From Podospora anserina (lineage: Eukaryota): a DNA stretch of 64,000 bases. The notes beneath the pieces are model-generated. The model saw nothing but the letters and a program-made list of their open reading frames with translations, searched no databases and was not told where the DNA came from. Position numbers and translations under genes: made by a program. The DNA lies in assembly GCA_017654855.1 (NCBI GenBank), contig CM030336.1, positions 558,001 to 622,000 of the forward strand, in the 5' to 3' direction. Positions 1,181 through 40,565 of this stretch are shown here, one piece after another; position 1 is the stretch's first letter, and the number at the start of each line of letters is the position of its first letter.

Positions 1181-1617
1181 TTTACATCTCTCGTAGCAAT
1201 GAAATGAACGGCCAAAAGAGCTGGTATTTAATCGTTTAAAGCCTATCACGATGTTTAAATACCTTCTATTATATTTCCGCTCGTTTTTCAGGTCTCCTAA
1301 GGCCTATCCACTATCTTCAAGTCGTATTAACTATCTTTGATGCTTGTTGACTATCTTTAAAGGCCTACTGAATATGTTTTAGGGCCCTTGCTTCGCTTGT
1401 TGTCACACGTCAACCACTCGCAGCCTGGAGCACAGCCAACAACACAGTGAACTGAAAGCTCTGAGCCAGTCGTTGGGAAGTGAAATAAGCAACAGGCTAC
1501 AGGCGGCAGCAGCAGAGGCATTGGCTCATGTATAAGCAGAGGGATGTGCTGGACTTGGCAGATACTTAAGGTCATCACAACACGGACCACAGTGAGAGAG
1601 ACAAATACATGAGCAGA

Positions 1618-1809
1618 AGAGCAACCAGACTGTCATTTCCAGTGAAATCCAATGCAGATTTCGGAAGACATACTGCCAAAAACTGAGGAAGATTTCTCTC
1701 CCTATCTTCTACATTCACACCCCTCAGTCTTGCAATGAACCTGAAGCATATAAGCGCCGATAGAAAATAAAAATCGAAAATAAAACGGGCGGTAAAAAAT
1801 GTAGGTACT
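1618..1809 (+). repeat. Dispersed ~190-bp direct repeat, copy 1
   Basis: Aligns by eye with 20942-21129; shared blocks include TGCCAAAAACTGAGGAAGATTTCT and CCTGAAGCATATAAGCGCCGA. Confidence 0.9.
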
Positions 1810-8621: not shown

Positions 8622-10529
8622 ATGGCGGTCCTCCACCAATTCGACTACCTCTTCGCCATTGGCACCATCTTCGCAGGCCTCGACGCCTGGAACATTGGTG
8701 AGTTGATACACCAACATGCAACCATCACCACCGCTTGATATCAGCTCCTAACCAGCTCTCTCTCTCCCCTCCAGGTGCCAACGATGTGGCCAACTCATGG
8801 GCCACCTCTGTGGCTTCCCAGTCCGTGACCTACCTCCAGGCCATGGTTCTCGCCTCTGTCATGGAGTTTGCCGGCTCCGTTGGTGTTGGTGCCCGCGTTG
8901 CCGACACCATCCGCACCAAGATTGTCGACACGGCTCTCTTCAAAGATGATCCCGCTCTTCTCATGCTTGGCATGGTCTGCGCTGTTACCGCTTCCTCCAT
9001 CTACCTCACCATGGCTACCAAGATTGGTCTTCCCGTCTCCACCACCCATTCCATCATGGGTGGCGTCATCGGCATGGGTGTTGCTGCCGTTGGTGCCGAT
9101 GGTAAGGCTGACCACGCTCTCGGGTACCTTTTCTGACAGGACGCTAACATTGTGATCTCCAGGTGTCCAATGGGTTGGCAAGGGTCCCGGTACTGGTGCC
9201 ATCAACTCTGGTGTCGTTCAGGTCTTCCTCGCCTGGATCATCGCCCCTGGTCTCTCCGCTATCTTTGCCTCCATCATCTTCTTGATCACCAAGTATGGCG
9301 TCATGCTTCGCAAGAACCCCGTCTGGAAGGCCTTCATCTACGTGCCAGTCTACTTCGGTCTCGCCGCCGCGCTCCTTACCATGTTGCTTCTCTGGAAGGG
9401 TGGCAACTACGAGGTCAAGCTCACTGATTCCCAGCTCCCCGGTGTCATTGTTGCCGTCGGTGTCGGTTTTGCCCTCCTCATGTGCGTCACTCTGATGCCC
9501 TGGCTCTACCGCGTTGTCATGCTCGACGACTGGCAGCTCCGCTGGTACCACATTCCTCTCGGTCTCCTCCTCCTCCGCCGCGGCCCCGTCCCTGAGAACC
9601 CCGACGACGAGTACGAGGATGAGCCTGTCCAGGAGATCAGCCCCAAGGATGAGCTCGCCGCCACCAAGGCCGCCCAGCGTGGTGATGTCGAGATCTCTGC
9701 CGCCGGTGCGCTCCCCGAGAAGACTGTTGGCGCCGCCGACTCCACCGATGGTGCTTCTGGCAACGGCGCCGCTGCCCCTGTCCGCCGCAAGAAGCCCTCC
9801 GACTTCCGCAAGCCCCACAAGAAGCTCCTCAAGGGCAGACCCGAAGGCAAGTGGTACTCTTTGCCCGTTGTTTGGTACGGTATCAAGTGGGCTTTCCTCC
9901 ACGGTATCGATCAGGATGTTGTCAACCTTGCTGGCCAGAAGAGCGCCCTCGCTGGTGATGTCGAGGAGATTCACGCCCACGCTGCTCGCTACGACAACAA
10001 GGCCGAGTACATGTACAGCTTCCTCCAGGTCATGACTGCCGCCACTGCCTCTTTCACCCACGGTGCCAACGACATCGCCAACGCCATCGGTCCCTATGCC
10101 ACCGTCTTCGAGATCTGGAACTCCGGCGTGCTCCCCGAGAGTAACAAGGCTGCCGTTCCCACCTGGATTCTCTGCTTCGGCGCTGCCATGCTCGTCCTCG
10201 GCATCTGGACTTATGGCTATAACATCATGAGGAACTTGGGTAACCGCCTCACCCTCCAGTCGCCATCCCGTGGTTTCTCCATGGAGCTTGGCTCTGCCAT
10301 CACTGTCATCCTTGCCACCCGCCTCAAGCTTCCCGTCTCTACCACCCAGTGCATCACTGGTGCCACCGTCGGTGTCGGTCTCTGCTCTGGCACCTGGCGC
10401 ACCGTCAACTGGCGCATGGTCGGCTGGATCTACTTCGGCTGGTTCATCACCCTCCCCGTCGCTGGTATCATCTCTGGCTGCCTCATGGGCATCATCATCA
10501 ACGCTCCTCGCTGGGGCTACTCTGGTTAA
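8622..10529 (+). CDS. pho-4: Phosphate-repressible Na+/phosphate symporter, PiT/PHO4 family (yeast PHO89 homolog)
   Basis: Exons 8622-8697, 8775-9101 and 9163-10529 with GT-AG introns. N-terminus MAVLHQFDYLFAIGTIF; duplicated PiT signatures GANDVANSWAT and HGANDIANAIGP; LPVSTTH and LPVSTTQ motifs. Confidence 0.95.
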
Positions 10530-19155: not shown

Positions 19156-20943
19156 ATGGCCTCCCTACTCCTACCATCCCCTCAGCTTCCCCGTCTAGCC
19201 AACCTCCTCACAAGCTCAATACTCCTCCACCTCCTCATCGCCCTCCTCCTCCTAAGTCTCGCCTACCGTGTCCACCGCTGGCATAAACTCTGTCATGTCC
19301 CTGGCCCCTTCCTAGCAGGATGGACCTCCCTCTGGCTCACCCGCGGCTTCATCAGCTACAAAGTCTACGAAGACATGCACGCCCTCACCAAGAAATATGG
19401 TCCTGTCGTCCGTGTAGCTCCAAACAAGGTGATCATCAACAACATTGACTCCATCTACCGCATCACCAGCGCGCGGTCAGAGTACAAAAAGAGTGACTGG
19501 TACCTCCTCGCACGGGTGATGCCGGGGGCGGATAATCTCCTCTCAATGAGAGATCCAAAGCTGAGAGCCAAGAGGTTGAGACATGTCCTCCCAGCCGTAA
19601 GTTCCCTCCACCCTTTCAAGTAGGAGCGACACTGACAGAGATAGTTCTCTGGCAAAAACCAAGACGACTTCGAACCCGCCGTTGACAAAACCATCTCCAC
19701 CCTCCTCGACCTCATCAACACCAAATACCTCTCATCCCCCTCCCAACACCGCCTCATGAACCTGGCCCAGAAATCCCACTTCTACACCTTGGACTCGTTC
19801 GGTGAAATAGCCTACAGCCAGTCCTTCGGCTCCCTCGACACCGACAGCGACGTCCTCGGCATCGTCAAAACAGGCGACGTGACCTTCCCTCTGCTTAGCG
19901 CGGTGCACAACCACCACAAGATCTTCCAGACGATTCAAAAATGGCCTTTTTACTACCTCCTACCCAGGGAAGGGGACAAAGTCGGTTTTGGGAGGGTGTT
20001 TGGCCTGGCGCTGGAGATTGTGAACAAGAGGTCGAGGGAGGTTGGGGAGGAGGGGGTGGATAAAAAGAGGGATATGCTGCAGAGCATGATGGACAATGGG
20101 CTGGAGGGGGATGAGCTGAGGAGTGAGGTTGCCATGTCTTTGTATGCCTCCCTTCCCTTCCTTTCCTTTCCTTTCCTTTCATCTACTCACTCATATGGGA
20201 TAAAACGGAAGCTAACCTATGTGTGTGTGTGTGTGTGTGGTAGTTTTGTCGGGTCGGACACGGTTGCATCCGCCATCAGAATGACAATGTTGTTGCTCAT
20301 GACACACCCCGCTGTGTATAGGCGTTTACAAGACGAAATCGACGACTCGACAGAGAAGGGTAGGATCAGCAGGCCGGTGACCAACGATGAGGCGAAGAGG
20401 CATCTTCCGTACATGCAGGCTGTGATTCAAGAGTCACTCCGGTTATTCCCCCCCTCGTCAATCGTCCCGTTTTTCAAGGAGGTCCCTGAGACGGGGGATA
20501 CAGTCGACGGGTACTACCTCCCCAAGGGAACCACCATCGGCACAGGCTGTGTCATGTGGAGTATGAACCGCGACGAAGACTTCTGGAGTCCGGACGCGAA
20601 CCTCTTCCGACCGGAGAGGTGGCTTGAAGCGAACGAGGAGAGACGGACCGAGATGGAACGGTGTGTGGATTTGATCTTTGGGAGTGGCAAGTTTGTCTGT
20701 GCTGGGAAGAAGATTGCGTTTATGCAGATGAACAAGTTGTTTCCCGAGGTGAGTTTCATCTTACACATTACACTGTTTTTTTTTTGGTGGCTGAAGTGTG
20801 GGGTGATGGTGGCTGACGTTTATTGATTGTAGTTACTGAGAGGGTATAACTGGTCTCTGCCAGATCCGTTGCGCCTGCCAACGATTGATAACCCTACCAT
20901 CTGGGATATCCACGGGTTGATGGTGCGGATAGAGAAGAGGTAG
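19156..20943 (+). CDS. Cytochrome P450 monooxygenase (pisatin-demethylase-like by overall appearance)
   Basis: Exons 19156-19596, 19645-20141, 20244-20748 and 20833-20943. N-terminal TM followed by VPGP; I-helix VGSDTVA; ExxR (QESLRL); FRPERW; heme motif FGSGKFVCAG. Confidence 0.93.
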
Positions 20944-21129
20944 AGCATCCAGACTCTCATTTCGAGAGAAATCCAATGTTGTATCTAGAAGATATATTGC
21001 CAAAAACTGAGGAAGATTTCTTCTTTATTTTTACATTCACCCCTAAGTCTTCCAATGATCCTGAAGCATATAAGCGCCGACAGAAAATAAAATTTGAAAA
21101 CAAAACGGGCTGTAGAAAATATAGGTACT
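20942..21129 (+). repeat. Dispersed ~190-bp direct repeat, copy 2, starting at the P450 stop codon
   Basis: Aligns with 1618-1809. Confidence 0.9.
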
Positions 21130-22635: not shown

Positions 22636-23586
22636 AGAGCAGGCAAGTTTTATAACTGCCAAGATCGGTCGGAAAACATCATAATCACTGGAGGCTCAAG
22701 TTCCGGACAGTGGCCGGTTTGGTATTGCTCGTAGCGGGCATCTTGGCAATTTGGTCGTGCGAGGGATCTTTTTCAATATCCACCTGCGGTTTTATCTCGC
22801 CTTGTTGAGTCCAGATGAATCCCAGCGCGGGCGGACGGCACTCCCGCGTTTTGAGCCGGCCCGCAACTTGAGCGGACCCGGGGAGGGAGAGGTTGCGGTT
22901 GACTCCCACAACTCGGGACACCACCGCTAGGGGAGGTTGCGGGACCCTGCCTTGAGCGGACCATCAACGAGGGAAGCTGCGGGAACCTCCCCCCAATTGA
23001 TGGACGGGATGTGGTGGTGGGGCATTTTTTGCGGTACCAATCATTTTTGTCTACGACATGTGTGGCTTGGCTTTCTTGTTTCTCGATTTGTGTCCACTTC
23101 CCCACATTATGTTGGTTGGTTGGAAATACCCACAAATCCCCATTCCAACGGCGCCACACCCAGATCATTACATATTACAGCAAATGATTGACGGCGACTT
23201 CGAGCAAATTTGCAGTGTGGTGTGCCTCTGCAGTGGTCTCGATGGAAGGGCAGCCCCGACCGGGAACCAGACAAACCTGGCGACTTCAGACCAGGTCCAA
23301 CATTCAGCGTCGTCGCCAGACCTCCAAAACTCCATCAATCTATAAGTAATAAGGAAACGAAAAGTGGAAACCTGTTTATACCAATGGTTCTATCCGCTTA
23401 GAGATGGCCCTGCGAAAAAGGCCATCGATGTTACTGGTGCTGCGGACCTCTGCATCCTGGTGACAGCGATCCAGACCGTCCCCAGCTTTGTAATAACCGC
23501 ACGAAGCAGCCGCCAACTTTACAATGTTGCTGCTATTGCGATAGCATCTCTTCTTCCCAAGTAGTATCCTCGCTGAAGCTGAAGCC

Positions 23587-26500
23587 ATGTGCAAGAAAGA
23601 GATTGTTAGGTCGCCGAAGAGGCTGTTCAAGAAGCTTTTTGGACGTCGTGGTGCAACCTCGCCCGCTCCATCTGCCACTCAGTCAATGGGTATGTTGAGA
23701 CCAAGCGCCAGACTGCAAGCCTTCTCGAAACTCACTTTTCCGACAGATATCCAGCCCCCTGAGCAGGGAAGCGCAAAACGTGGACTAGCGATACTTACTG
23801 GCACTACGACACAGCCATGTACTCCTACCTCCCCGTCCACCGACCACGATCAGGCGCCTCGACTTAGTGGCGATACAAAACCAACAGACCATCAACAGCC
23901 AGCTGCTACATTGAAAGCTCCACCCCGCGCCCTAGATATCGAACCCCAAGCCGAACCAAAAGCGACCGAGTCCATAGATCAACCAATCTCTGCGCTTTCT
24001 ACGTCTCAGAGACTCTGGGATACTGCGTACAACAGCCTCGCAGAGGGCAAGGACACTGCAGAGCTTGTTAGGTCGTACTTGGAAACACTGGACAAAGTTC
24101 TCGGGAACAAAACTTGTGAACCCTCAACCGTCGGCGTTTCTATCACACTAAAGGACTCAAGCCAGCGGCAGGCCCACATGAGAAAGTTGGTAGAAGAAGG
24201 CCAAGCAAAACTTTTCACACAGTCAAAGGTTATACAGGGTGTAGGCGATGCCGTCCAATTCCTTTCTTCAGTCAAGCCCATGATCGACCTGGCAATTCAG
24301 AACATACCGCAAGCAGCGCTACCGTGGGCTGGTGTTTGCATCGGACTACAGGTACATTTTTGTGTTCGGACGATGAAATTATATCCTTGACTAACTGGCA
24401 GCTAGATCTTGCTAAACCCAATAAAAGCGGTAGAGTCCAACCTAGAGGGCATTGTACATGTTATCTCTAGGATGGACTGGTACTGTAGCCTGGGTGAACA
24501 TATCCTAAGGCAGGACAACATTGTGGTTGGGGTGGAGAGCTTAAAGTCTGTCCAGCTTCAGCTGGAAAATAGAGTGGTTGAGCTCTACAAAGTTCTTCTC
24601 CTCTATCAGATGAAGAGCGTTTGCTCCTTCTACCGGCACCAGGCCTGGGTTTTTCTCCGTGGCCTTGCAAACATTGACGACTGGAATACCGATCTCAAGA
24701 ATGTCACAGACGCCGAAGCAGCTCTTCAGAACGATTTGAGTCAGTTTAACAGCCAGATAACCAAGAGCCTCCTAGCAAAGCTTGTTGAGGAAGCGGAACA
24801 GAGAAAAGCGCTGCTGGGAGGCATTCGGCAAGCTCTTCAGAGCGGCATCGCTGTGCAGAAGGAAACCCACCAAGCTATCCAGGACGGCAATGATCTGCAG
24901 ACAAAGATTTACAGAGATGAGAAAGATACACAATGCCTCCGGGACCTACGCTTAACTGATCCGCGCGATGACAAAAAAACCATCGAGGGGAGGAAGGGCG
25001 GCCTGTTACGAGATGCGTATCACTGGGTCCTCACCAACCCTGAATTCGAAAAATGGCGCCATGGCCCAGACAGCCACCTACTCTGGATCAAGGGCGACCC
25101 CGGCAAGGGCAAGACAATGTTGCTCTGCGGTATTATCGACGAGCTGCAGCAGTTGACTTTGAAGACAGGCGTTTTGTCTTTCTTTTTCTGCCAGGCCACC
25201 CACTCGTGGACCAATAATGCCACCGCCATCCTACGCGGCCTTATCTACCTGCTTCTGGACCAACGGCCATCCTTTATATCCCATGTACGGCAAAAGCACG
25301 ATCATGCAGGCAAAGCACTCTTCGAAGATGAGAATCGATGGGTTGTTTTATCCGAGATATTTATAAACATTCTGCAAGATGCGAGCCTGGAGGGCGCTTA
25401 CTTGATCGTTGATGCGCTCGATGAATGCATAGACGATCTGCCAAAACTTCTCAGATTCATTGTGGAGATGTCGCAACAGTTTCCTCATGTCAAGTGGATT
25501 GTCTCCAGCCGCAACTGGCCGAATATTGAGAATGGTCTCAACGCAGCGACACAGAAAGTACGGCTGTGTCTAGAGTTGAATGCGATGCAAGTGTCTCAGG
25601 CCATCGACGCGTACATCGACAACAAGCTATTCGGTCTCAAACTGCTTCAGGATGACGCGTTAACTGAAGACGGCGCCCTTCTGAAGGATCAAGTACGGGA
25701 TATTCTACGCAACAAGGCCAACGGCACATTCCTCTGGGTTGCCCTCGTTGTACAAGAACTCAGCCAAGAGTGGGTTGAGCGCTGGCATGTCCTAGAGATC
25801 GTTAAAGAAGTGCCACCCGACCTGAATGGGATGTACGATCGAATGCTCAACGAGATTGAGCGGAATAAACGGGACTCGGAATCTTGTCGGCGCATTCTCT
25901 CGGTAGTGACGGTAGCGTACCGCCCACTTTACTTGGACGAAATAGGCGGCTTGTCTGGATTACCGGAACAGATTGTCAAGTCGACGGAGAATGTTCAGAA
26001 GATCGTGGCCAAATGCGGATCCTTTCTCACAGTCCGAGATAACCAGATCTACCTCGTTCATCAATCGGCCAAGGATTATTTAAGCGACCAAGCCTCCGCC
26101 CTACTTTTCCCCGACGGCGCGGCAATAGTCCACCACGACATATCGAATCGGTCGTTAAAGCTTTTGTCTAACAAGTTACGACGCGATATATACGGCCTAC
26201 GCGTACCAGGGTTTCCTATCGACCGAGTCCGTGTACCGTACCCCGACCCTCTTGCCACAGTGCGGTACTCGTGCGTTTACTGGGTTGATCATCTCTATGA
26301 GTGGCAGTCAAGCGACAATATCAAGTACACAAATGTTTTTCAAGATGGCGGTAACATTGACGACTTCCTAAGGAAGCACTATCTCTACTGGCTCGAAGCT
26401 CTTGCACTTTGCAGGAGCATGTCACAGGGGATAACTTCAATGGCAAAGCTTGAAAGTATTGTTCAGGTAGGCTCTACCTAGTAATAGTAACGTATTATTA

Positions 26501-27011
26501 AGCAGTTCTGACAGGAATTTAGCACAAGTCGATTACGCCTCAATTACTAAGCCTTATCGCTGATATGCGCCGATTCGTTTTATACTGGAAATGGGTTATC
26601 GAGAATTATCCTCTTCAGGTATACGCTTCAGCACTTGTGTTTAGCCCCGCCCAAAGTATAACAAGAAGCCTGTTTACGCAGGAAGAACGGAAGTGGATTA
26701 CTTCGGGACCGATTATAGAGGATAATTGGAATGCGTGCCGGCAGACGCTCGAGGGACATAGCGCTACGGTCTGGTCGGTAGCGTTCTCGCCCGATTCGAA
26801 GTGGGTTGCGTCAGGATCACGCGACAACACCCCACCTTACCAAGGCTATGAAATTAGCTTGGGTAACAGATGGATTACGAAGGGCTCAGAAAACTGGCTA
26901 TGGCTGCCTCTGGAACATCGGCCAAGTTGTTCAGTTGTAGCGGCATCAACAGTTGCTATTGGCTGTTTTTCGGGACGCGTCTTAACTATCACGTTCACGA
27001 CAGACAGCTAA
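23587..27011 (+). CDS. Fungal NLR of the NWD (HET-D/E/R-related) type: NACHT_N + NACHT + WD40 domain reduced to about one repeat
   Basis: Introns at 24352-24405 and 26467-26522, plus a possible in-frame intron at 23690-23746. NACHT_N-like LWDTAY and PQAALPWAGVC; Walker A WIKGDPGKGKT; Walker B LIVDALDEC; KWIVSSRN; GTFLWVALV; VHQSAKDYL; one WD unit QTLEGHSATVWSVAFSPDSKWVASGSRDNT. Confidence 0.9.
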
Positions 27012-27939: not shown

Positions 27940-28502
27940 GCACGGCACTACCTTGGCTCTCCCAAACACCACACAACCCTCGAGAAGCCACCTCACAGTC
28001 AGAGCTTATTAAAACTCGGGTATCAAACCACCAGGGTAGCTCTCCAAAATCTATGTTGACTACTGTGAATCGATTAGCTAAAGGTACGATGGCTGTCATG
28101 CACGAGGTGGCTTTTTTACGTCCGGAGGTCTCAGGACTGCGAAAGGCCAATGAGGCACTTAGTAAGAGACGAAGAGCCAAAAAACACGTGTGAGGCTTGG
28201 AGGGTCAATTACTGTACAAGAGGCACAGGATTTACTGGATTAAAAGGCTGTAGGTGAGCAGGTAATCCAGGAAAATGGACAAAGTGGTGGTGGTGCAGGG
28301 GGTCCCGTACAAAGGTTCGGTGCTGTGGCGTGTGCGGTAAGCCTGGCCATAATGTACGTACATGCCAGGAGGCTACAGAATCATCTGATTCATCTGTTTC
28401 CGATTCAGTTATAGTTATTTCCTAGTGTTGTGGTTGTGTAATTAAGGATAGTTGTGGTAGGGTAGTGGTGAGCCGGCCGCTCGCTTATCACGCACGTTAC
28501 AT
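27940..28502 (+). mobile_element. 3' remnant of a pogo/Fot1-type Tc1-mariner transposon with right TIR
   Basis: PWLSQTPHNP...HQGSSP...LRKANEALSKRRRAKK, then RLGGSITVQEAQDLLD* and a CCHC knuckle RCCGVCGKPGHNVRTC. It terminates in GCCGGCCGCTCGCTTATCACGCACGTTACAT. Confidence 0.9.
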
Positions 28503-28559: not shown

Positions 28560-28900
28560 TTACAACATTATGCGTTTCTTTTCGTCTCTCCCACTCTTTC
28601 GTTCCCTTTTTAGCGCCCTTGTAAACCCATGGTGCAGTCCTTCAAGAGTCTTCACAACAACCTTTCTCTGCCCATCCTTCAACTTTTCTCCCAACTCCAC
28701 AGTCTCAGGAGAGAAGACGTCACCCGAAGCTGTCACCAAAGTTATATGAAGTGGAAATTCTGCCGGGTCGGCCCTGGATGGCGACACACGCGGATCTGTC
28801 CTCTGGCTGACCTCCGGAACGAAACAATCATGGAAGAAGTGCACCATGGCTGGTGGGTGCAATCGACAGGTCGGTCTCGGGTTAGATCGCCACGACACTC
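28560..28900 (-). pseudogene. C-terminal fragment of an alpha/beta hydrolase (HSL/esterase-like)
   Basis: DPRVSP...LVTASGDVFSPE...LEGLHHGF covers the acid and His residue regions. Upstream VAI*PETDLS is in another frame, and no nucleophile region was seen. Confidence 0.6.
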
Positions 28901-29349
28901 CGGCTTCCACCCCAATTCGGATGAGGGTCGCTTGGCTACAGCCCAATGCCCAGCGGCCACAATGGGCTTTGCCGACCAATTTCAATATCACTTGGAGGCA
29001 CTTGATTTGCCAGGCGCGCCTACTCGGAAGCCAATGATATGCCCCCCGACATGGTCCCTGCAGACCTGTCAGAAGTACGATACACTCTATAAAGGTAAAT
29101 ATAATAGGGGTTACCACTGTATAATTATATTGCTTGTCCTACTTGTTCTTTAAAGCCAGAGAACCTCCATTATATCTATACATGGTGACAACGTTGGTGG
29201 CAAATGGTACCATGTCCAGCTGAACTGGTTACGTCAGTTCAGCTCCCCTGAGCTCCATTCAGCTTGGTTGACCAGAACCCCTTTCTGTCTGACAAAACCA
29301 CCCCGCGCTCCAGAGCCAGAACCTTTCGCGCCCACAGGCCAGGCGACGC

Positions 29350-29526
29350 TTCACCTACCAAGTGTGTGGCATATCCATTAGTCGCGAGAGGGACCTCAGG
29401 TGCCACATGAAGATGCACGACAAGACTGAGAAAATCCAGTGCCCCCAGTGCACCAAGACGTTCACACGCCAGGATAAGGTTCGCGACCACCAGCACTGGA
29501 GCAGCACTGACCAGTTTGATCAGTGA
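29350..29526 (+). pseudogene. Fragment encoding two C2H2 zinc fingers
   Basis: FTYQVCGISISRERDLRCHMKMHDKTEKIQCPQCTKTFTRQDKVRDHQH; the first Cys position reads Tyr (TAC). It could alternatively be the last exon of an unresolved gene. Confidence 0.6.
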
Positions 29527-30089
29527 CATCAAGGAGGGATGGAGCGCTGAGTCAGGAATATAATGGGGAGCCTGCGACTTTTAGATGCTCAAGTGAAGCT
29601 TATCGTTCATTGCATTATATACACACATTTCTTGCATGTTTCATAGCGCGATAGTTCTATCCAACTCTTTACACTCTTCCATTTGACCTGCGTTCAGCTG
29701 GTCTGTGACACCTGGGAGATGTAGTGTCACACGGCAACCGCTAACAAACCTGGGCCACGACCAATATCACACCACGATGAGGGATAATTGCAGGCTCTGG
29801 TCCAATCGTTGGGTGATGAGACAAGACTCATGATGCAGGGCGCTACGGTAGCCATCTCATTAGCTTGTATTTATATCAAACAAAGAGACAGGCCTTGGCG
29901 GGCGCCTAAAACCCTTAGGACACAGCCTACCAGAAGAAGGATAAATACGCGTGGAACGCGACAGACTGATCAGCCGAAAAGAATCCCCATCAAGGATCTT
30001 GAGGCCACTAAAGATCATTAGCTGAATTGAACCACTGTTCCAAGCTCTGATATCTCGGCCCTTGTCACATGTAGCCAGCTGTCACACCA

Positions 30090-33000
30090 TCAGTCCGAAG
30101 TGACAACCGACCACGACTCTGCCGTAAATGAAAGCACATCCCGAGTCCTCATTTTCTCCGGATCAATCAAAACCTTCAGCCTAACATTGCCAGCCGCGAG
30201 ATTTAACACCCGGAAGATGACATACACCGTCCTCCTGTTGCCGTTTCCATTCGTGTTCTCTTGCATCTGCCATCAGTCAGCTTCTATCCCACCCAGAGCA
30301 ACCGTCCATCGACAAACAACTTACCCTGCGATACTGAGCTTTGCTCATAAAAAATCGCGTGCCGCACCCACTTGTTGTAGCTTTTACCTCAATGAAGTAC
30401 CGCGGCCTCGCAGTTGTCCAAGAGTTGGCGTTTAGGTACCCCCTGTCAATGAGAAGCCTCGTAAACTCTCCGTCGTTATCATCGTAGACAATGTCAGACG
30501 TCTCATTTCCAACCCATGCCCTGATATCCGAGTACTCTGGATGAACGGAGACATAGTGACGGATGGTGCTCTGCCAGTTGGCTCTTGAGAACCCTGGAAG
30601 GGCTGGTTGAAGTCTGGAGAGGAGTTCGAAGACCTGGAGGATCATCAGCAAGGTTCCTTTTTGTTGACAAGAAATACCTACAAAAAGCTCGCCCGCGGCA
30701 CCAATCTGCTTATCCCGCTCCACCTGACTGGCTGATCGAATCTGGTAAGTCTCCCCTTCGGACCCGTCCTGATTAGTACCGCCCGGGAGTGCGGCTCGAA
30801 CATTGGACATGTCAAAGGCGCCTGTTAATGGAAAAGTAGCTGATCTGGCAACCCTGACGACGTTGCGCAGAAGACGAAGGTATGTGTCCCCTTCCACGGC
30901 ATATGCCTCCATTGGTCGTAATGAGGGCCTGGAAGATACATAGCGATTCTGCGCGGCTACATAAGACGGATTAAGAGGTGCAGGGGACGTAACTGAGGAC
31001 TGTGGTGTCGCTATGTCTGAACCCTCGTCATCGCTAGACTCGGCTTTCTCCATGCCCTGATGGGGCATTGCCTGAGGGCTTGGACTGGATGAGGTCTCCG
31101 GTCCTGGCACCACAGTCTCCTCAGTCGGATCTGAGATAGCAGGGGATGCAGTTCTGATGTGAACGAGCGCGTTGTGCTCCCCGACTTCCTCGCCGTCAAT
31201 GTTGGGGATGTCGACTCCGCTGATGCCCTGTTCGGCGAGGATGTCCCCGAGAGCAAAGGCTTTGGCATTGAGGACGCTCTGGACAGCGGCGTATGCTTCG
31301 GACGCTACCGGCTCGGAAATTTGTGTTGTTGGATCTCTTATGAGCCATTCACAAAGGCGGAGTGGAAGCTTGCTGTTGAAACAGACTTCTTGACCTCGTT
31401 CGTTTCTTGGGACGTAAACTGAAAGCTCGTCGTTGTCTTCACGGATGTGAAGGAGCACAGATTCTCTCTCGACGCGGTGGACTTGGTTGCCTTGAGAGAG
31501 AAGGAGCTCAGCCGTGGTTCCGTCAGTTTCAAGGGTCCTGGAGCTTCGAAGGTAGGCGTAGAAGGCGTTGGGGGTCAGTCGCGTTCGGGGGCTGCTGAAG
31601 TGTACCGCAATGCTATGTGATAACCGTTAGCCTAGTTCGCTGTTGAAAGACCAAAGTAGCTTACCGGAGTAAAGCGTGAGCTTTTGCTCTGATTTCTCGA
31701 TGAGGAAATGATATTGGTCGTGTTGACTCTCTGTCCGCAGATGTAATCTCCTTGACGGATGCGGATAAGTACCGGTCTCCCAGGCCAGCCCACCGAATAA
31801 ACGGCTGGAGAGTGTGAAGCTCCAGTAGATCAAAGTCGAGGAATTTTGCGACATGCGCAAATGCTTCGCCAAGGGGTTTGCGGTCGAGCAATGAAAACGC
31901 GTCGTCACCCCTGCACAGTCTGATATCTCCGTCCGGAAATCGTACTGGGAAAACGCGGTTTTCTAGAATTGGGGCCGGGTCAAAGTCTCCTGAACCAGCT
32001 TCCAAGAACGAGTTGAACACCAGCAGAGTCTCTCTGGCTTCCCGGACTGAGAAACTTTCGTCATGCTGTGCCTTGAGCTTATCGTATACCATTTTGGCGG
32101 TCATCTTGGCGACCCCCAGGGTGTCGACAAAGAAGCCCCTGAGACCGCCATAGACACCATCAAGCACTAGTTTGCCTCCGATTGTAGTGGCACTCGACCA
32201 CAAGCAATCTGAAACCTTATGCCAGGAAACTTCCCCATTGTCGTCCAAGGAAAATATCAGGGCTTCATCGAGGAAGGCTTGCCTGGTATCTGTTAGCTTG
32301 TGTGTGAGACAAATACGCGCAATTTGTGGTGAATACTTCAAGTCTCTGGCTTGATCTCCGGTCAAGCACATGTCTGAAAGACATGTGTACAGCTCCGTCG
32401 CCTCTGTGAGTGTCATCTCCTTATAGTTTTTTTGCCAGCGGATTTCCTCGACGATATGATTCCAATCGGCCTCGGCCGGAATGTTCAAGGTATGTACGAA
32501 AAACATCTCTAAAAGCAGGATCTGGTCTTGTGAAAGCGAGAAGGCGCCAGAATATAAGGTCTTCAAAACGACTGTATGCATCAGATCGACTGGTGCCGAC
32601 CAGAGACAGTCCTCCGGTGTCACCCATTCATCAGGAAGATAAACGTAAGATTGCCCAGAAGTAAAAGCCGTCCTGAAAGTATGTCAGTACCGCGATGTAA
32701 TTTGCGTCGACATTGTTGACAAACCTGATCTTCTCCCGGCAACCTTCAGGGTTGTTCGACTCGCCAACCTTGGATTGTAGATAAGCGTAAAGCTGGTGCA
32801 TCCGATCCGGCCTCTCTAACGGCTCTGCAAACCGATTTGGGTCGATATGCTTCAGCACGACCAGCGCAAAGTCCAGGAGTTGGCCATCATGTGCCAGCCC
32901 GAACGCAGATATCAAGCCGCTCCATTCCAAAAGGGGTGCGGTACCGCTGAGAGGAGCCTCCAGCTTCAACCACGGGAAGAACTCGCTATCAGTCATAAAT

Positions 33001-35544
33001 CGACGGCATAGTTCGAGCGGTTCCCCATATGGAAGATACGTCGAATTCAGAGGCCGAAGAGTAGTTTCCGGTCCTTGACACAAAACTGGGATTTGGCCAA
33101 TGGCTTCGATGATTCGGTTGTCAGGTCTCGCCTGGGACTCGAGTACTCTCGCCCAGCTCTCCCGCAAAAGCCCTACGAACTTTTCGGGTCTGTTTTTTGC
33201 GACATAATTGCCGGCAGAAGTGAGTTCTCCTCTCTCAAAATCATAGATTGGAACCGACTCGGACAAATTGCAGGCCATAGCCAGCCATTCCTCCCACCAG
33301 ACAAGGCCATCTTCGGTTGGGTTGGGCAAGCTTGGAGGGTCTTCAAAGTAAGCTTCGTGTATGAACGAGACTTCGAGCCCGGGTGCACCGCATCCGTAAT
33401 CGGATCCGGGCGCGGTGGGGCGGAAGAGCTGTTTCGCGCCGTAGGGGTCGTCGCTTTCAGTGTAAATGTCCACGTCCCATCCGTTTTGGAGTACCCCGCG
33501 GTGGTTGAAAATCCGCAGCCTGCCATACTCGGTCTGCGCGGAACGTTGCGTGAGGAATAGAAAGCGAAGATATTCAACACTTTCCGCGAGTGTGAGGGGG
33601 CCATTCTGACACTTGCTGATAACGGCGCTTTGGACATCTGCAACGAATGCGTTCTTCACACCCACGGCGTCAAAAAGCTGCTTTCGAGCACTGTTGGCGG
33701 CAGCCGCAGGATCTGTCACCTTGAAGGGAAGGCCCGAGGGAATCACAAGTTCTGTGCCCTTAACTTGGGCATAATAAACCGGCCCGGGGATTGTTGACGT
33801 CCATTGCCCGGTTCGAAGTGGTAACAGTTGCAGCGCTTTTACCTCGGAAATTCGCGTGTGGCATCCCATACTGAATGGCAGGTGCAAAATCTTTGCGACG
33901 CGTGTTTGCCAGTCCTCGTCGACTTGAGTTTTTATCCTCGATGTTACCGAGGCGAGATCGGCTCTTGCCCTCTTGACGATTCCGTCCATGCCTATATACC
34001 GCAGGCCATAGTCTTCCAGTCGGCCCAGGTCGGATGTTTGGTACTGTGAGGAAAGGTATTTCTCAGGGCTTATATCACGGAGTAAAGGCTCGCCGTGCCT
34101 GTCCAGACTAATGCTTGAATGGTGCAAACAGTCGTCTATCAGCCGAAGCGGCCCTGGCTTGGCCGGGACTACAACCGGGGTGGACATAATGCGGTCCTTG
34201 ATCTTTGTGATGACACCTTTCCAGAAATCGTCCCAAGGATAAGCATCCTGTTGCGGGAGGTATTGCATCCACTGGAATCGCAAGGTAGGGTGATCGCACA
34301 GCTGGAGAACAGCTTTGATGAAGGCATCAGCGATTCCTGTCGCCAGCCCCTGGTTTCTAGTCGAGGTTATGACGATGTCCTGACGGTTCGCTTGGGTATC
34401 GAAGTCGGCGTGTATAAGGAACTTGAACCCCATTTGTCGGACGGGTAGAAACGCAAAGAGCCATTGGTTATTGACAACGGGCACAGAGATTGCAGTCATT
34501 GGAAATGCCAGCACCACTTCTCCCCGAGAATACGCTCCCGAGGACTCTTCTGACTCGGAGTAGGTGCGTCCTTGGGATCTGGCAAGACCTGTAGCGACGT
34601 GATCCGTGACGTGGTAATGTCGAACTTCTGTTTGGCCCTCCTGCCCTAACAACAATGTATGTTTTGTGCATACAGCCCTGGTCCCTGTGCGCTCAATCGA
34701 ATGGGTAATGACCTTGTATGGCTCATCAGCTTCGCCTTTCTCCTGGTCGTAAAAGATAATTTCAATCTCTCGGATCTTCTTCATGAAGAGGAGGATCGTG
34801 TCATGGATCTCGTTCAACTGTTGGTGAATGACCTGGTTTCGTCTCTCCCTGTCTTCAGGGGTCTCCGCATGCTGAAGATCCAGAGTGATGCGAGTGCACT
34901 GGTCTCCAACAGATGGGCCAGCCTCTTCCCAAATCGGCGTAATCATGCCCATTCCTGGGTCACCTTTCCTGTGGGTGAATTGGAAACACAAGTGACCGGA
35001 CTGCACATGCACTCGATCCGCCGCCATGAAAACGGACTTAAACCCAATGCCCTTCTCACCGATATAGCCCTGGACAGCCGTCTTGGAGCTCTTGCCGATG
35101 TCGCATATGGCTCTCAGGTTGGCTTTGGTAAAGCCGTCTTCGTTGCACTCCAGGACCACGTGGTTCGGATAAACGCTAAACGATACTTTCGGGACTTCGC
35201 CATGTGCTAGAGCTTCGCTATAGTCGTTATCCTCGGCGTTTTGGAGCAGCTCGAAGATAAAGCGAGCGGTACTTGTGTATAGGTTCCGAGCGAGTCTACA
35301 TACGTCTCATTTAGGGTCAGTGGATACAGGGCAAGGCGAAGGAAAACACTCACGTCATCACAGATGAGCCGATAAGTCGATCTCTCGTGTCAAGAGCACG
35401 CTGAAGCTCCTGGAGGACGGCCTCGGGCAGAATTCCCGTCACGCGGTCCCAAGTCTCTGGTCGGATGCGGCCGTGGCTCTCAGCGATGCTCTCCACGAGC
35501 TGTCGGGCCTCTGCCCGATTGGACGGGCGGGTTGTTGCCGTCAT
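30090..35544 (-). CDS. Large multi-exon sacsin/NO VEIN-like protein: N-terminal GHKL (HATPase_c-like) ATPase and C-terminal DUF3883-type PD-(D/E)XK nuclease-like domain
   Basis: ATG at 35544; introns include 35353-35296 and 32724-32673; TGA at 30092-30090. The spliced product has FIFELLQNAEDN, CNEDGF, ICDIGKSSK, IGEKGIGFKSVF and FLIHADF. The C-terminus has IGAAGELFV, SDIVYDD, YFIEVKATT, FFMSKAQY and YVIFRV. Confidence 0.85.
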
Positions 35545-36374
35545 GTTTGCCGAGGCACATGGAAAGAAACCAAAAGGATGTTTGTAGTTCTATGTGTTGG
35601 CGGCAGGTTCTCCTTTATGCAGGGCTATTTCCTCCCTGGCGGTTGGCGCGGCGAGTTTTCCGGCTGCGCCGTTGGCCTGCGAAGTCTTGCCGCCCGTTTA
35701 AACCTCACATGTTACAGGAGACGCATTGAACCAGCGTGTCGGGTCAACATGAGACAGAGTCGCCAGGGTCTCGGCCCGGAAATGGACGGGTGGTACCCCA
35801 CGATGAATGCTGTTTCCTCACTGGCCCCAGGAAGACGAGGTAGCGTCAATATTTTCCTCTTAGGAGACCCAAACTCAAAGCGGATTACTACACGGGTATA
35901 GGTAATTCTGCTAGCCTGGCATCCCTCACCTTTTACCACTGAAACCCATTTCAACAGGCTTTAAGAATTATTATCGGGGCCATTAAAGTTGTTAGTAGGC
36001 CCTGAGAATTGCTCTTTTGGCCTAAAGAAGGTTGTGTTAGGACTCAAAAATAAATCATAAGACCTATAGGATAGTTTCGGAGGTTGGTCATGCCCGTCTA
36101 GCAATACTCAATTCAAAGTGCAGCTTGTGTGATGATCTTTCAGCGACTCGGCTTTATAACAAATTCAAAGGGACCCAGCGCACTCCGCCAACCCTTTGAG
36201 CCTAACATCTGAGGACTGCACTGCGTCGAGTTCGGCCAGCGGAGAAAACCACATATCCTGTTGTTACCAGAGTGTCCATATTGCTACTGTTCGAAGGACT
36301 CCTCCATTCTATGCTCTACATCAAGCCTCCCTCTTCTCACTTTTCACTTTAGACAACAGCTAACACTGGCAGAT

Positions 36375-39269: not shown

Positions 39270-40565
39270 GCAGGCTGATTTACTGCATCTATTACGGCCC
39301 TAACCGAATCAAGGACGTTGTGCAGCTAGGCACTTACGACTTGGTTATCACTCCGTCATAAGCGAGCTCGATGCGCGCCTCAAGAGAAAGCCCGGTATCT
39401 ACCCTCTCTGGAGGAGATTGGGTGGTTCCGTATAGTTCTCGATGAAGCCCACACCATTCGAGAGCTAAACACGCTGTCATTCAAGTCGATCTGCCGGCTA
39501 CAGGCTAACCGCCGTTGGGCAGTGACGGGAACACCGGTTTAGAACAAACTTGAGGATCTTGCATCCCGTTTTGCGTTCCTGCGTCTGAAGCCATGTAACG
39601 AGAGGAGTAAGTTTATCCAGTACATAAATGCTCCCTTCAAGGCTGCCGACCCCGACATCGTGCCCAAGCTTCGCGTTTTGAATGACACTATCACAATTCG
39701 TCGCCTAAAGGACGAGATCGAACTTCCGGAGCGGACAGACGAGATTGTTCGTCTCGACTTTACGCCCGAGGAGCGCAGGGTCTATGACATTTTCAAGAAG
39801 ATGGCCGAGGCACGAGTTCAGGTTTTGACGGGTCAGGGTGTCGGCCAGACCCGCATTATGGGTGGCAAGACCATGATATACGTCCTGCGGTCCATTCTTC
39901 AGCTTCGTCTGGTTTGTGCGCACGAGAAATGTCTGCTGAATGATGACGGCTTTCAAGAGATTCAAGGCATGTCGGCTGATGCGCCCATCGATCTTGACAG
40001 TGGCGACGACGACGAAAAGCCGGCACTCGGCAAGGCTTATGAAATGTTGTACCTAATGCAGGAGGGTCGCAGTGACTACTGTATCAAGTGCAGCAACAAA
40101 CTCGGTTCCATTGAGGTGGACGACCCAGAGTCGGATCAGAAGGATGACATCTTAGGTTACATGGCTCAGTGCTTCCATGTCTACTGCCCAACTTGCATTA
40201 AGTTGGTGAATCGGCACGGGAATGGCGAGCTGCAACAAACTGCCCTGCCTGCGCTTACGCCCAGAAGGCTCAGTGCATTGAACTTCGCTGCAGCAAAGCC
40301 AATATCGAGCACAAAACCCACCAGGCAAAGACACAGGCGGGCAAGATCGTTCCAGATGGCCGGTATGCCAGACCTCATACCAAGATCCGGGCTTCGGTAG
40401 AAGAGCTTCTAACCAACAAGGCCCGGAGCGAAGCGAATCAGGATGAGCCGCCGTACAAATCAGTTGTCTTCTTCGGCTGGACCTCCTACCTTGATCTTAT
40501 CGGATTCGCCCTAGACAATGCCGGTATCACGCACACTTGCCTTGACAGAAAGATGTCCCGCATTG
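39270..40565 (+). pseudogene. Internal fragment of a RAD5/RAD16/HLTF-like SNF2 helicase with RING finger
   Basis: WFRIVLDEAHTI, RRWAVTGTPV*NKLEDL (TAG at 39540 where CAG is expected), ILQLRLVCAH, RING CIKC...CFHVYCPTC and KSVVFFGWTSYLDLI. It has several frameshifts and lacks both termini. Confidence 0.88.

What the first reader, a model, noticed from the sequence alone, without database searches (positions are those of the whole stretch)
30090..35544. Intact sacsin/NO VEIN-like GHKL ATPase fused to a DUF3883-type nuclease inside a transposon-rich NLR island
Seen: the spliced gene retains GHKL motifs (ELLQNAED, GEKGIGFKS) and a C-terminal GxxGE...D...IEVK nuclease-like signature, with clean introns at the junctions checked, while most neighbours are decayed. 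Established: this architecture matches plant NO VEIN, and DUF3883 belongs to the PD-(D/E)XK restriction-like fold. Inference: it is a candidate fungal defence or allorecognition effector in which the ATPase regulates a nuclease. I know of no characterised function for it in fungi.
Basis: partly seen in the sequence, partly recalled or inferred. Interest (0 to 1): 0.75.

Follow-up and report, generated by a model that had tools for sequence, protein, structure and literature searches.

The report
Fungal Tiamat-like ATPase-nuclease gene
This is an intact, transcribed fungal gene for a large protein with an Hsp90-like ATPase at one end and a restriction-enzyme-like DNA nuclease at the other; it belongs to the family of the bacterial anti-phage protein Tiamat and plant NO VEIN, which is common in filamentous fungi and has no tested function there.

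Summary
A minus-strand gene runs from the ATG at 35544 to the stop at 30090. It has seven exons, not six: a 54-nt in-frame intron was missed. It encodes 1710 aa. A transcript contig from a relative about 1% diverged removes exactly the six predicted introns.

- **N-terminus:** a sacsin-type GHKL/Hsp90-like ATPase (Pfam SACS; Foldseek Hsp90, E 2.5e-9).
- **C-terminus:** a NOV_C/DUF3883 domain with the E...D...ExK residues conserved. Its weak fold matches are almost all PD-(D/E)xK nucleases.
- **Family:** both ends match PADLOC profiles of the bacterial anti-phage protein Tiamat (TmtA), collinearly (E 6.6e-67 and 4.1e-10).

So this is a fungal Tiamat homolog. It is not a full NO VEIN, because it lacks the NO VEIN N-terminal region. 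Two October 2026 preprints already describe this family, fungal members included. At least 1756 long homologs exist.

Context: two NACHT loci lie in the window, but I found no transposon protein domain.

The catalytic ends are conserved. The middle is variable, and pN/pS is about 0.7 in the C-terminal half. A defence role is plausible but untested.

Verdict: a real, ordinary new member of a recently described kind. Interest is moderate.

The parts
35354..35544 (-). Exon 1 (aa 1-63 plus two bases of codon 64): N-terminal helical lead-in before the ATPase
   Evidence: ATG at 35544 is the first in-frame ATG after a stop. The donor is GTGAGT at 35353. The exon end is confirmed by the RNA contig joint 35295/35354.
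32725..35295 (-). Exon 2 (aa 64-920): GHKL ATPase, Hsp90-middle-like domain and first part of the variable core
   Evidence: Pfam SACS E 1.4e-10, 41.9 bits against a cut-off of 32.8. PADLOC TmtA PDLC03972 E 6.6e-67, residues 1-585 against profile positions 33-598 of 1302.
33900..35294 (-). Modelled ATPase plus middle-like piece (aa 65-529). Motif I is E79/N83 (codons 35252-35250 and 35240-35238); the GxxGxGF motif is at aa 143-149
   Evidence: AF2 model pLDDT 82.5. Foldseek best matches are all Hsp90 family, E 2.5e-9, probability 1.00. E79 and N83 are invariant in 36 of 36 aligned sequences.
32337..32672 (-). Exon 3 (aa 921-1032)
   Evidence: Joints 32671/32724 and 32281/32336 in the RNA contig.
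32283..32336 (-). Intron 3: 54 nt, in frame and free of stops, GTATTC..CAG with a CTAAC branch site. It is easily read through as 18 extra residues.
   Evidence: The 18 residues are missing from ortholog P0001. Sequence read. Skipped in the RNA contig.
31665..32282 (-). Exon 4 (aa 1033-1238): first half of the conserved core block
   Evidence: Joints; conservation profile.
30682..31612 (-). Exon 5 (aa 1239-1549): second half of the core block, low-complexity linker (aa 1381-1480, about 30889-31188), pre-nuclease helix, and the GAAGE motif (E1547 at 30690-30688)
   Evidence: Joints. The linker shows mean conservation 0.09-0.30 and up to 74% gaps.
30634..30681 (-). Intron 5: 48 nt, in frame and free of stops, directly after GELF. 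Four annotated relatives end here.
   Evidence: Skipped in the RNA contig. P0002, P0004, P0009 and P0028 stop at GELF/GELY plus V, three of them with a further S.
30325..30633 (-). Exon 6 (aa 1550-1652): nuclease core with D1596 (30495-30493), D1601 (30480-30478), E1631 (30390-30388) and K1633 (30384-30382)
   Evidence: Conservation counts. TmtA C-terminal profile matches.
30090..30266 (-). Exon 7 (aa 1653-1710 plus stop): last strands of the nuclease fold and the C-terminal strands predicted to pair in a homodimer
   Evidence: Joint 30266/30325. Secondary structure. Predicted interface at aa 1695-1710.
30023..35636 (-). Extent of the spliced transcript contig seen in a close relative. It gives a 5' UTR of at least 92 nt and a 3' UTR of at least 67 nt.
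   Evidence: X19 contig of 5292 nt and X20 contig of 5242 nt (table 8).

Best explanation
The gene encodes a fungal member of the Tiamat (TmtA)/NO VEIN family. It is a 1710-aa protein with three parts: an N-terminal GHL (Hsp90/sacsin-like) ATPase, a long and poorly conserved middle region, and a C-terminal PD-(D/E)xK (NOV_C/DUF3883) nuclease tethered by a disordered linker.

Most likely mechanism, by analogy with B. cereus Tiamat. The protein is a homodimer held together at the nuclease end. ATP binding closes the ATPase ends into a clamp. The variable middle binds a trigger, which could be foreign nucleic acid or protein. The nuclease then nicks or cuts DNA, and ATP hydrolysis resets the protein.

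Most likely role: nucleic-acid-directed defence or conflict, against mycoviruses with DNA stages, plasmids or mobile DNA, or as a cell-death executioner.

Shown here: the gene structure, the transcription in a close relative, domain identities, conserved catalytic residues and family membership. Inferred: enzymatic activities, dimer-clamp gating and the defence role.

My odds: family identity about 0.9, ATP-gated nuclease about 0.55, defence role about 0.4.
For: **Gene model**
- Six GT..AG introns, all removed in one RNA-type contig of a relative, with no insertions or deletions.

**ATPase end**
- Pfam SACS at 41.9 bits against a cut-off of 32.8.
- PADLOC TmtA E 6.6e-67 for exon 2 and 1.3e-76 for the ortholog.
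- AF2 model of aa 65-529 has pLDDT 82.5 and matches Hsp90-family N plus middle domains at E 2.5e-9.
- Motif I E79/N83 is invariant in 36 of 36 sequences.

**Nuclease end**
- Tested on the last 233 aa of ortholog P0001, which is 90% identical to the window there.
- NOV_C at 22.5 bits against a cut-off of 22.1. 22 of 28 family members match at E <= 0.01.
- Matches the C-terminal ends of TmtA profiles: PDLC03971 E 4.1e-10, residues 30-221 against 1612-1768 of 1782. 25 of 28 members hit PDLC03972.
- AF2 pLDDT 87.8.
- The best VIA rows are almost all PD-(D/E)xK enzymes: I-Ssp6803I Z 5.7 (rmsd 3.4, 107 aligned), Hjc Z 5.5 (3.8, 104), D212, SwaI, NhoI, RecU-like.
- Catalytic residues conserved among 121 aligned C-termini: E1547 in 113, D1596 in 103, D1601 in 106, E1631 in 110, K1633 in 104. 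The remaining rows are mostly gaps.

**Homodimer of the nuclease domain**
- Complex prediction score 0.55, best of 3 controls 0.01.
- The mark was reached by 21 of 30 microbial proteins solved as pairs of one chain and 0 of 23 solved as single chains. For eukaryotes the counts are 17 of 29 and 0 of 30.
- The runs agree in at least 82% of contacts, and partner pLDDT is at least 83.
- The alignment was not used. The pass may reflect memory of solved PD-(D/E)xK dimers.
- The interface is the C-terminal strands, as the Tiamat preprint describes (section 17 read).

**Pattern of constraint**
- Identity to T. setosa is 94% in the GHKL fold and 94% in the nuclease, but 83-86% in the middle.
- Between the window and the close relative, 25 nonsynonymous and 11 synonymous differences fall in codons 959-1699. 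pN/pS is 0.71, and omega <= 0.2 is rejected at P = 2e-4.

**Biochemistry of the prototype**
- B. cereus Tiamat hydrolyses ATP, cuts ssDNA and nicks dsDNA (preprint 10.64898/2026.09.30.754977, section 19 read).

**Context**
- An NWD-type NLR lies 3 kb from the gene's 3' end.
Against: - No activity or phenotype was tested, and no fungal homolog has been tested in the papers I could search.
- The structural match of the nuclease domain is modest. Foldseek gave no PDB match at E <= 0.001. The best VIA Z is 5.7, below the level of about 8 that the tool says can arise from common arrangements.
- The Pfam NOV_C score is only just above threshold, and it was measured on the ortholog, not on the window's own spliced protein.
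- The middle region did not align to TmtA profiles beyond about position 655 of 1302, and I could not fold it.
- Within the species the gene looks nearly invariant: 2 differences in 6309 bases in two other runs. 18 of 18 listed holders of that species carry at least 0.98 of its words. That is unlike many polymorphic immune or het loci. Those runs may not be independent strains.
- pN/pS near 0.7 fits relaxed constraint as well as diversifying selection. It rests on 36 differences from one comparison.
- Plant NO VEIN and human sacsin show that family members can hold non-immune roles.
- Most known mycoviruses are RNA viruses (my own knowledge). B. cereus Tiamat did not cut ssRNA (section 19).
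Confidence: 0.6

Rival explanations
1. It is an exapted housekeeping protein. The ATPase-nuclease would work in genome maintenance, chromatin or RNA/DNA quality control, much as plant NO VEIN has developmental roles and sacsin is a chaperone-like protein. It would not work in defence.
For: The gene has a one-per-species set of relatives in 10 Sordariales species among the 120 best hits. Its catalytic ends are strongly conserved. It is nearly invariant within the species. It is transcribed in a culture-type RNA assembly of a relative without any known challenge. The preprints stress that eukaryotic homologs have non-defence roles (abstract of 10.64898/2026.09.30.754977).
Against: Identity falls fast within the order: 89, 66, 61, 53 and 50% over exon 2. 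pN/pS is 0.71 in the C-terminal half. Homologs are very numerous, with 1756 long proteins at E <= 0.001. Several species have more than one copy, for example two Apiospora kogelbergensis entries. Fungal relatives fused to HET domains are reported (10.64898/2026.09.30.755639, section 10). None of this suits a core housekeeping gene.
Confidence: 0.27
2. It is itself an allorecognition (het-like) determinant. Allelic differences in it would trigger cell death when strains fuse.
For: It sits close to an NWD-type NLR, a class that includes het genes. The middle region is variable between species. HET-domain fusions occur in other fungal family members (preprints, passages read).
Against: The gene carries no HET domain. 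Two runs of the same species from other studies differ from the window at only 2 of 6309 bases. All 18 listed holders of that species carry it. There is no sign of divergent alleles or of presence/absence variation. 0 of 4 long homologs that I scanned carried HET.
Confidence: 0.07
3. It is a gene under relaxed constraint that is drifting towards loss in a decaying region. It is still open by chance and still transcribed.
For: pN/pS of 0.71 cannot be told apart from neutrality (P = 0.33). Several neighbours are fragments: SNF2, Abhydrolase_3, a NACHT piece, and an NLR with a single WD40 repeat.
Against: 1710 codons stay open in the window, in the relative (no indels, and none of the 36 listed changes is a stop) and in T. 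setosa. All catalytic residues are intact. The catalytic ends are 94% identical to T. setosa while the middle is 83-86%. Exon 2 has only 13-15 differences in 2572 nt, about the number expected from synonymous change alone (12.1). That last point is not verified site by site.
Confidence: 0.06

Closest known systems
Bacterial anti-phage protein Tiamat (TmtA; prototype from Bacillus cereus)
   Same: The layout is collinear. The N-terminal GHL ATPase and the first part of the core match TmtA profiles (E 6.6e-67 to 1.3e-76). The C-terminal domain matches the last 60-160 positions of four TmtA profiles (best E 4.1e-10). The motif I Glu is present; the preprint reports its counterpart E44 as needed for defence. 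A disordered linker precedes the nuclease, and dimer-forming C-terminal strands are predicted (preprint section 17).
   Different: This gene is eukaryotic, with six spliceosomal introns. The middle region (about aa 720-1480) does not align significantly to TmtA profiles. No defence phenotype or enzyme activity is known for it.
Fungal Tiamat-like proteins described in the 2026 preprints (for example Immersiella caudata A0AA39THY1; types VII-A/B with a HET/het-6-like fusion)
   Same: It has the same Tiamat-like core without the NO VEIN N-terminal region, and it comes from the same fungal order (Sordariales). The closest proteins are named 'Protein NO VEIN C-terminal domain-containing protein' by UniRef.
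   Different: The gene and its ortholog have no HET domain. I could not see the preprints' supplementary tables, so I cannot say whether this orthogroup is listed there.
Plant and animal NO VEIN (NOV, At4g13750)
   Same: It has a GHKL ATPase plus a NOV_C nuclease with conserved active-site residues.
   Different: It lacks the conserved N-terminal region with three structural motifs that defines NOV (preprint 10.64898/2026.09.30.755639, section 10 and a figure legend read). Here the ATPase starts 64-79 residues from the N-terminus. In that preprint's tree, fungal homologs fall apart from NOVs.
Sacsin (human SACS)
   Same: The ATPase matches the Pfam 'Sacsin domain' model (PF25794) above threshold, with the ELLQNA and GxxGxGF motifs.
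   Different: It has one such domain, not three repeats. Pfam found no ubiquitin-like, DnaJ or HEPN domain. It has a PD-(D/E)xK nuclease instead.
Hsp90/HtpG/TRAP1
   Same: These are the best structural matches for aa 65-529, covering the N and middle domains (E 2.5e-9). There is also a weak sequence match (E 0.0015).
   Different: Sequence identity is 10-15%. There is no Hsp90 C-terminal dimerisation domain. The rest of the protein is unrelated.

Membership tests
Tiamat (TmtA) family, as curated in preprint 10.64898/2026.09.30.754977 | N-terminal GHKL/Hsp90-like ATPase domain | tested here: met
   Pfam SACS at 41.9 bits against a cut-off of 32.8 on the window's exon 2. PADLOC TmtA E 6.6e-67. 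Foldseek Hsp90 family E 2.5e-9 on the AF2 model.
Tiamat (TmtA) family | ATPase catalytic motif I (Glu and Asn) and the glycine-rich ATP lid motif are intact | tested here: met
   E79, N83 and G143/K145/G146/G148 are invariant in 36 of 36 aligned family members, the window included.
Tiamat (TmtA) family | C-terminal NOV_C (DUF3883) domain recognised by sequence profile | tested here: met
   Measured on the C-terminal 233 aa of ortholog P0001 (90% identical to the window there). NOV_C scores 22.5 bits against a cut-off of 22.1, only just above, and covers profile positions 42-83 of 91. TmtA C-terminal profile matches reach E 4.1e-10. The window's own unspliced ORF gave no hit because two introns interrupt the domain. 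The spliced window protein could not be passed to the tool.
PD-(D/E)xK nuclease superfamily | Restriction-endonuclease-like fold | tested here: inconclusive
   The AF2 model has pLDDT 87.8. VIA-align top rows are nearly all PD-(D/E)xK enzymes, but Z is only 5.7-4.0. Foldseek has no row at E <= 0.001; its best rows are a Cas4-family protein and Hjc at probability 0.82-0.85. The direction is consistent, but the strength is below the tool's caution level.
PD-(D/E)xK nuclease superfamily | Catalytic signature: E in helix 1, D, then (D/E)xK | tested here: met
   E1547, D1596/D1601 and E1631-V-K1633 are present in the window. They are conserved in 103-113 of 121 aligned C-termini, and the other rows are mostly gaps. 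E70, D124, E154 and K156 are invariant in 28 of 28 sequences. Their spatial clustering in the model was not checked.
Tiamat (TmtA) family | Central DUF3684-type core (TPR-like repeats, 'Fold B', inactive metalloprotease-like fold) | tested here: inconclusive
   The TmtA profile alignment runs on to residue 585 of exon 2, profile position 598 of 1302. The precomputed Pfam family on all 120 listed relatives is PF27504 (DUF8348), not DUF3684. A language-model look-alike search of aa 930-1400 of the ortholog lists clusters with DUF3684 on 13-35% of members; these are leads only. The folds were not predicted.
Tiamat (TmtA) family | Protects the host against viruses or foreign DNA | not testable with these tools
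   This needs genetics in the fungus.
NO VEIN (plant/animal NOV) | Extended conserved N-terminal region upstream of the ATPase | tested here: not met
   ATPase motif I starts at residue 79. The transcript contig begins only 92 nt upstream of the ATG. The preprint states that fungal homologs lack this region (10.64898/2026.09.30.755639, section 10).
Sacsin | Three sacsin repeat regions plus UBL, DnaJ and HEPN domains | tested here: not met
   Pfam finds one SACS match and none of the other domains, both in the window's exons and in five full-length relatives.
Fungal HET-fused Tiamat-like proteins (types VII-A/B) | HET/het-6-like domain fused to the C-terminus | tested here: not met
   No HET match in the window's exons or in P0001. 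The stop codon follows the nuclease domain directly.

The most novel reading that the evidence does not exclude
Filamentous ascomycetes may carry a very large, under-counted arm of the Tiamat family that acts as a nuclease-based innate immune effector.

It would be under-counted for two reasons. The NOV_C match is borderline. And the nuclease-coding end is split by tiny introns, some of them in frame, so gene models are truncated or padded.

In this reading the conserved ATPase and nuclease ends are the engine. The fast-evolving middle is the sensor. Genes such as this one sit beside NLRs in eukaryotic 'defence islands' and may work with them. This gene is expressed, intact, and lies in a tractable Podospora/Triangularia-like fungus. 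It would therefore be a direct way to test whether eukaryotic Tiamat homologs are still immune proteins.
Probability: 0.3. Interest if true: 0.7.

Novelty: new member of a known kind. Interest (0 to 1): 0.4.

Why it matters
The two 2026 preprints leave one question open: have eukaryotic Tiamat homologs kept an antiviral role, or have they been exapted? Fungi get only a few lines in them.

This locus offers a cleanly validated gene model. The gene is transcribed in a close relative, keeps every catalytic residue, and comes from a group of fungi with good genetics. It lies next to an NLR. A knockout plus catalytic mutants could answer the question directly.

There is also a practical point. Short in-frame introns and a borderline NOV_C score cause annotated fungal relatives to lose their nuclease domain on paper. 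Four of the eight short models I looked at stop exactly at the intron 5 donor. Surveys that require both domains will under-count fungi.

Tried and rejected
- No whole genome is held for this window. Copy number in the genome and synteny could not be examined.
Whether the NLR adjacency is conserved is untested.
- Pfam on the unspliced C-terminal ORF gave no NOV_C hit. Introns explain this.
- The profile of the C-terminal alignment against PDB sequences gave 0 matches at E <= 10.
- Foldseek of the nuclease model against PDB gave no match at E <= 0.001.
- HET fusions: 0 of 4 long homologs scanned, out of 8 that were 1900 aa or longer, showed a HET domain. I therefore could not reproduce the preprints' HET observation in my sample.
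- Transposons: 0 of 40 neighbouring ORFs had a reverse transcriptase, transposase or integrase match. There was one sub-threshold zinc knuckle (E 0.0043). Only two short direct-repeat families and no inverted repeats of 60 nt or more were found. RIP-like dinucleotide indices appear in only 3 of 64 one-kb bins.
- Expression in the window's own species: no RNA holder is listed. Four RNA-guessed runs of the same species label held next to none of the words. This is no evidence either way.
- Folding the middle region (about aa 1040-1382) was not done, so the TPR-like, Fold B and metalloprotease-like folds remain untested.
- Supplementary tables of both preprints were not available. They may already list this orthogroup.

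Full report
**1. What is there**

On the minus strand, an ATG at 35544 opens a frame that ends at TGA 30092-30090 once introns are removed. I first derived five introns, of 58, 52, 52, 48 and 58 nt. All are GT..AG with a CTRAY branch site 15-25 nt before the acceptor.

The resulting protein aligned end to end with the best database relative, P0001 from Triangularia setosa, at 86% identity. That alignment showed 18 residues absent from the relative. The DNA there is a sixth intron at 32336-32283: 54 nt, GTATTC..CAG, with a CTAAC branch site. It is in frame and free of stops.

The final model has seven exons and encodes 1710 aa.

**2. Independent check of the model**

- Twenty of the 24 public runs listed hold the stretch.
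- I laid four of them on 29500-36100.
- Runs X19 and X20 come from one sample of 'organism B'. The tool only guesses that they are RNA. Each holds one contig (5292 and 5242 nt) covering 30023-35636 (X20: to 35586).
- That contig skips exactly 30267-30324, 30634-30681, 31613-31664, 32283-32336, 32673-32724 and 35296-35353. These are my six introns, read as CT..AC on the plus strand.
- It has 52 (X19) or 54 (X20) base differences and no insertions or deletions.
- Two runs of the window's own species label (X2 and X12, from other studies) hold an unspliced contig across 29792-36100 with only 2 differences.

So the spliced form is best explained as mRNA of a very close relative. A processed DNA copy is not formally excluded, because the table of joined forms in other runs was not given.

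**3. Domains**

*ATPase end*
- The window's exon 2 matches Pfam SACS (Sacsin domain) at E 1.4e-10 and 41.9 bits, against a cut-off of 32.8.
- An AF2 model of aa 65-529, built on 36 sequences, has pLDDT 82.5.
- Its Foldseek matches are all Hsp90-family proteins spanning the N and middle domains. The best is E 2.5e-9 at probability 1.00.
- Motif I residues E79 and N83 and the GxxGxGF lid are invariant in 36 of 36 sequences.

*Nuclease end*
- Two introns split this domain, so the unspliced ORF gave no Pfam hit.
- I therefore used the last 233 aa of the ortholog P0001, 90% identical to the window in that stretch, together with 27 other family C-termini (alignment A1).
- NOV_C scores 22.5 bits against a cut-off of 22.1. 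22 of 28 members match at E <= 0.01.
- The AF2 model has pLDDT 87.8.
- Foldseek finds nothing at E <= 0.001. Its weak top rows are a Cas4-family nuclease, Hjc resolvases and cap-snatching endonucleases.
- An all-against-representatives structural search gives Z 5.7 to I-Ssp6803I, 5.5 to Hjc and D212, and 5.3-4.9 to SwaI, NhoI, a RecU-like protein and others. Nearly all are PD-(D/E)xK enzymes, but Z is below the level the tool calls safe.
- Among 121 aligned C-termini, E1547 is kept in 113, D1596 in 103, D1601 in 106, E1631 in 110 and K1633 in 104. The other rows are mostly gaps.

**4. Family**

- PADLOC's models of the bacterial anti-phage protein Tiamat (TmtA) match strongly. For exon 2, PDLC03972 gives E 6.6e-67, with residues 1-585 against profile positions 33-598 of 1302. 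For P0001 the E-value is 1.3e-76.
- The C-terminal domain matches the very ends of TmtA profiles. PDLC03971 gives E 4.1e-10, at positions 1612-1768 of 1782. 25 of 28 members hit PDLC03972.
- The match is therefore collinear at both ends.
- The protein search found 1756 proteins at E <= 0.001 among 6645 candidates of 1499-4280 aa. Of the 120 best listed, 119 carry names of filamentous ascomycetes (my reading of the names) and one has no name.
- All 120 carry PF27504, which is DUF8348. 117 of the 120 carry PF25794.

**5. What is in print**

I ran three full-text searches. They found two bioRxiv preprints dated 1 October 2026.

- **Yuan et al. (10.64898/2026.09.30.754977).** I read the abstract, sections 8, 15, 17 and 19, and passages on fungi. 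B. cereus Tiamat is an ATPase that cuts ssDNA and nicks dsDNA. Homologs are common in eukaryotes. The core holds TPR-like, 'Fold B' and inactive metalloprotease-like folds. Both ends are predicted to dimerise. Filamentous fungi have Tiamat-like proteins, some fused to het-6-like domains.
- **Lageide et al. (10.64898/2026.09.30.755639).** I read the abstract, section 10 and passages. Fungal homologs lack the NO VEIN N-terminal region and hold only the Tiamat-like core. Some carry HET domains, and they fall apart from plant and animal NOVs in the tree.

I found no functional study of a fungal member. The supplements were not available.

**6. Evolution**

*Tree*
- I built a FastTree (LG+gamma, midpoint root) on window positions 60-1380.
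- Eight proteins of 1900 aa or more were left out before alignment. Rows with 30% gaps or more were dropped; I did not record how many.
- The window's protein sits with T. setosa (support 1.0). Next come Echria and Podospora aff. communis (1.0), Achaetomium and Chaetomium tenue (1.0), Phialemonium and Lasiosphaeria (0.98), and then two more Podospora species plus one Cladobotryum (0.91).
- This looks like a mostly vertical Sordariales group that diverges fast. Exon 2 identity falls through 89, 66, 61, 53 and 50%.

*Identity by region against T. setosa*

| Region | Identity |
|---|---|
| GHKL fold | 94% |
| Nuclease | 94% |
| Middle blocks | 83-86% |
| Helix before the nuclease | 77% |

*Window against organism B*
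- 40 of the 58 listed differences are shown, and 36 of those fall in codons 959-1699.
- 25 are nonsynonymous and 11 synonymous. pN/pS is 0.71.
- This is compatible with neutrality (P = 0.33) and incompatible with omega <= 0.2 (P = 2e-4).
- Exon 2 has only 13-15 differences in 2572 nt. About 12 are expected from synonymous change alone, but those sites were not shown to me.

**7. Annotation pitfall**

Eight listed relatives look as if they lack the nuclease. Four of them (P0002, P0004, P0009, P0028) end at GELF/GELY followed by V (three of them with a further S), which is exactly the intron 5 donor. These are most likely truncated gene models, not real domain losses.

**8. Dimer**

- Two copies of the nuclease domain (A1 residues 50-233) scored 0.55 against a best control of 0.01.
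- The tool's mark was reached by 21 of 30 microbial proteins solved as pairs of one chain and by 0 of 23 solved as single chains. For eukaryotes the counts are 17 of 29 and 0 of 30.
- The runs agree in at least 82% of contacts, and partner pLDDT is at least 83.
- The alignment was not used, and the pass may come from memory of solved PD-(D/E)xK dimers.
- The interface is the last 16 residues plus aa 1640-1650, as described for Tiamat.

**9. Surroundings**

I scanned 40 neighbouring ORFs with Pfam.

| Window position | Match |
|---|---|
| 3099-3689 | NACHT fragment |
| 9156-10529 | PHO4 transporter |
| 19645-20826 | Cytochrome P450 |
| 23545-27011 | NWD-type NLR: NACHT_N, NACHT and a single WD40 repeat |
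| 28560-29138 | Abhydrolase_3 fragment |
| 39543-40400 | SNF2 fragment |
| further right | Inositol monophosphatase, amidohydrolase, kinesin |

- No transposon protein domain was found.
- Repeats are few.
- RIP-like composition is confined to three 1-kb bins.
- 'NLR island' is therefore partly true. 'Transposon-rich' is not shown.

**10. Verdict**

The gene is an ordinary member of a family that has a name (Tiamat/NO VEIN) and was described shortly before this analysis. Its function in fungi is untested.

I commit to an ATP-gated, dimeric DNA nuclease with a variable sensing middle, most likely used in defence or conflict. My odds are about 0.9 for family identity, 0.55 for the mechanism and 0.4 for the role.

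Noticed in passing
window 23545-27011 (+): This is an NWD-type NLR. NACHT_N is split over two ORFs about 50 nt apart, probably by an intron. NPHP3_N/NACHT follows, then only one WD40 repeat before a short tail and a stop. The 26001-27000 bin has RIP-like dinucleotide indices. This may be an NLR whose repeat array has collapsed.
   Followed up: partly
window 3099-3689 (+): A 196-aa ORF holds a partial NPHP3_N/NACHT match (E 1.7e-19). This looks like a second, fragmentary NLR locus.
   Followed up: no
window 39543-40400 (+): This ORF matches only the last part of the SNF2-related domain (profile positions 166-289 of 290). The flanking ORFs gave no helicase match, so it is probably a gene relic. 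It may be worth noting because prokaryotic Tiamat genes often neighbour helicases (preprint abstract).
   Followed up: no
window 1605-1809 and 20929-21129; also 29766-30053: A short dispersed repeat has two copies at 80-89% identity. In DNA runs of the same species, several contigs break at 29975-30053 with raised summed depth. One loose end starts like this repeat. A multi-copy element therefore seems to abut the gene's 3' end.
   Followed up: partly
window 29579-29931 (-): RNA-type contigs of the relative show a further joint, 29842 to 29931 (88 nt skipped, CT..AC). This suggests another spliced minus-strand transcript just downstream of the gene. Summed depth is very high at 29942-30162 in those runs.
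   Followed up: no
window 35560-35480 (-): An out-of-frame upstream ATG lies 16 nt before the main start. It opens a 26-codon reading frame that overlaps the start codon and lies inside the transcribed 5' leader. I read this from the sequence.
   Followed up: no
window 28258-28422 (+) and 28560-29138 (-): There is a weak CCHC zinc-knuckle remnant (E 0.0043, below threshold) and a C-terminal fragment of an Abhydrolase_3 domain. These are signs of decayed genes between the NLR and the Tiamat-like gene.
   Followed up: no
window 30136 and 32229: At these two positions the window differs both from two other runs of its own species label and from the relative. Both changes are nonsynonymous relative to the window (V1696E, V1051A). 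They are either private alleles of the assembled strain or assembly errors.
   Followed up: no
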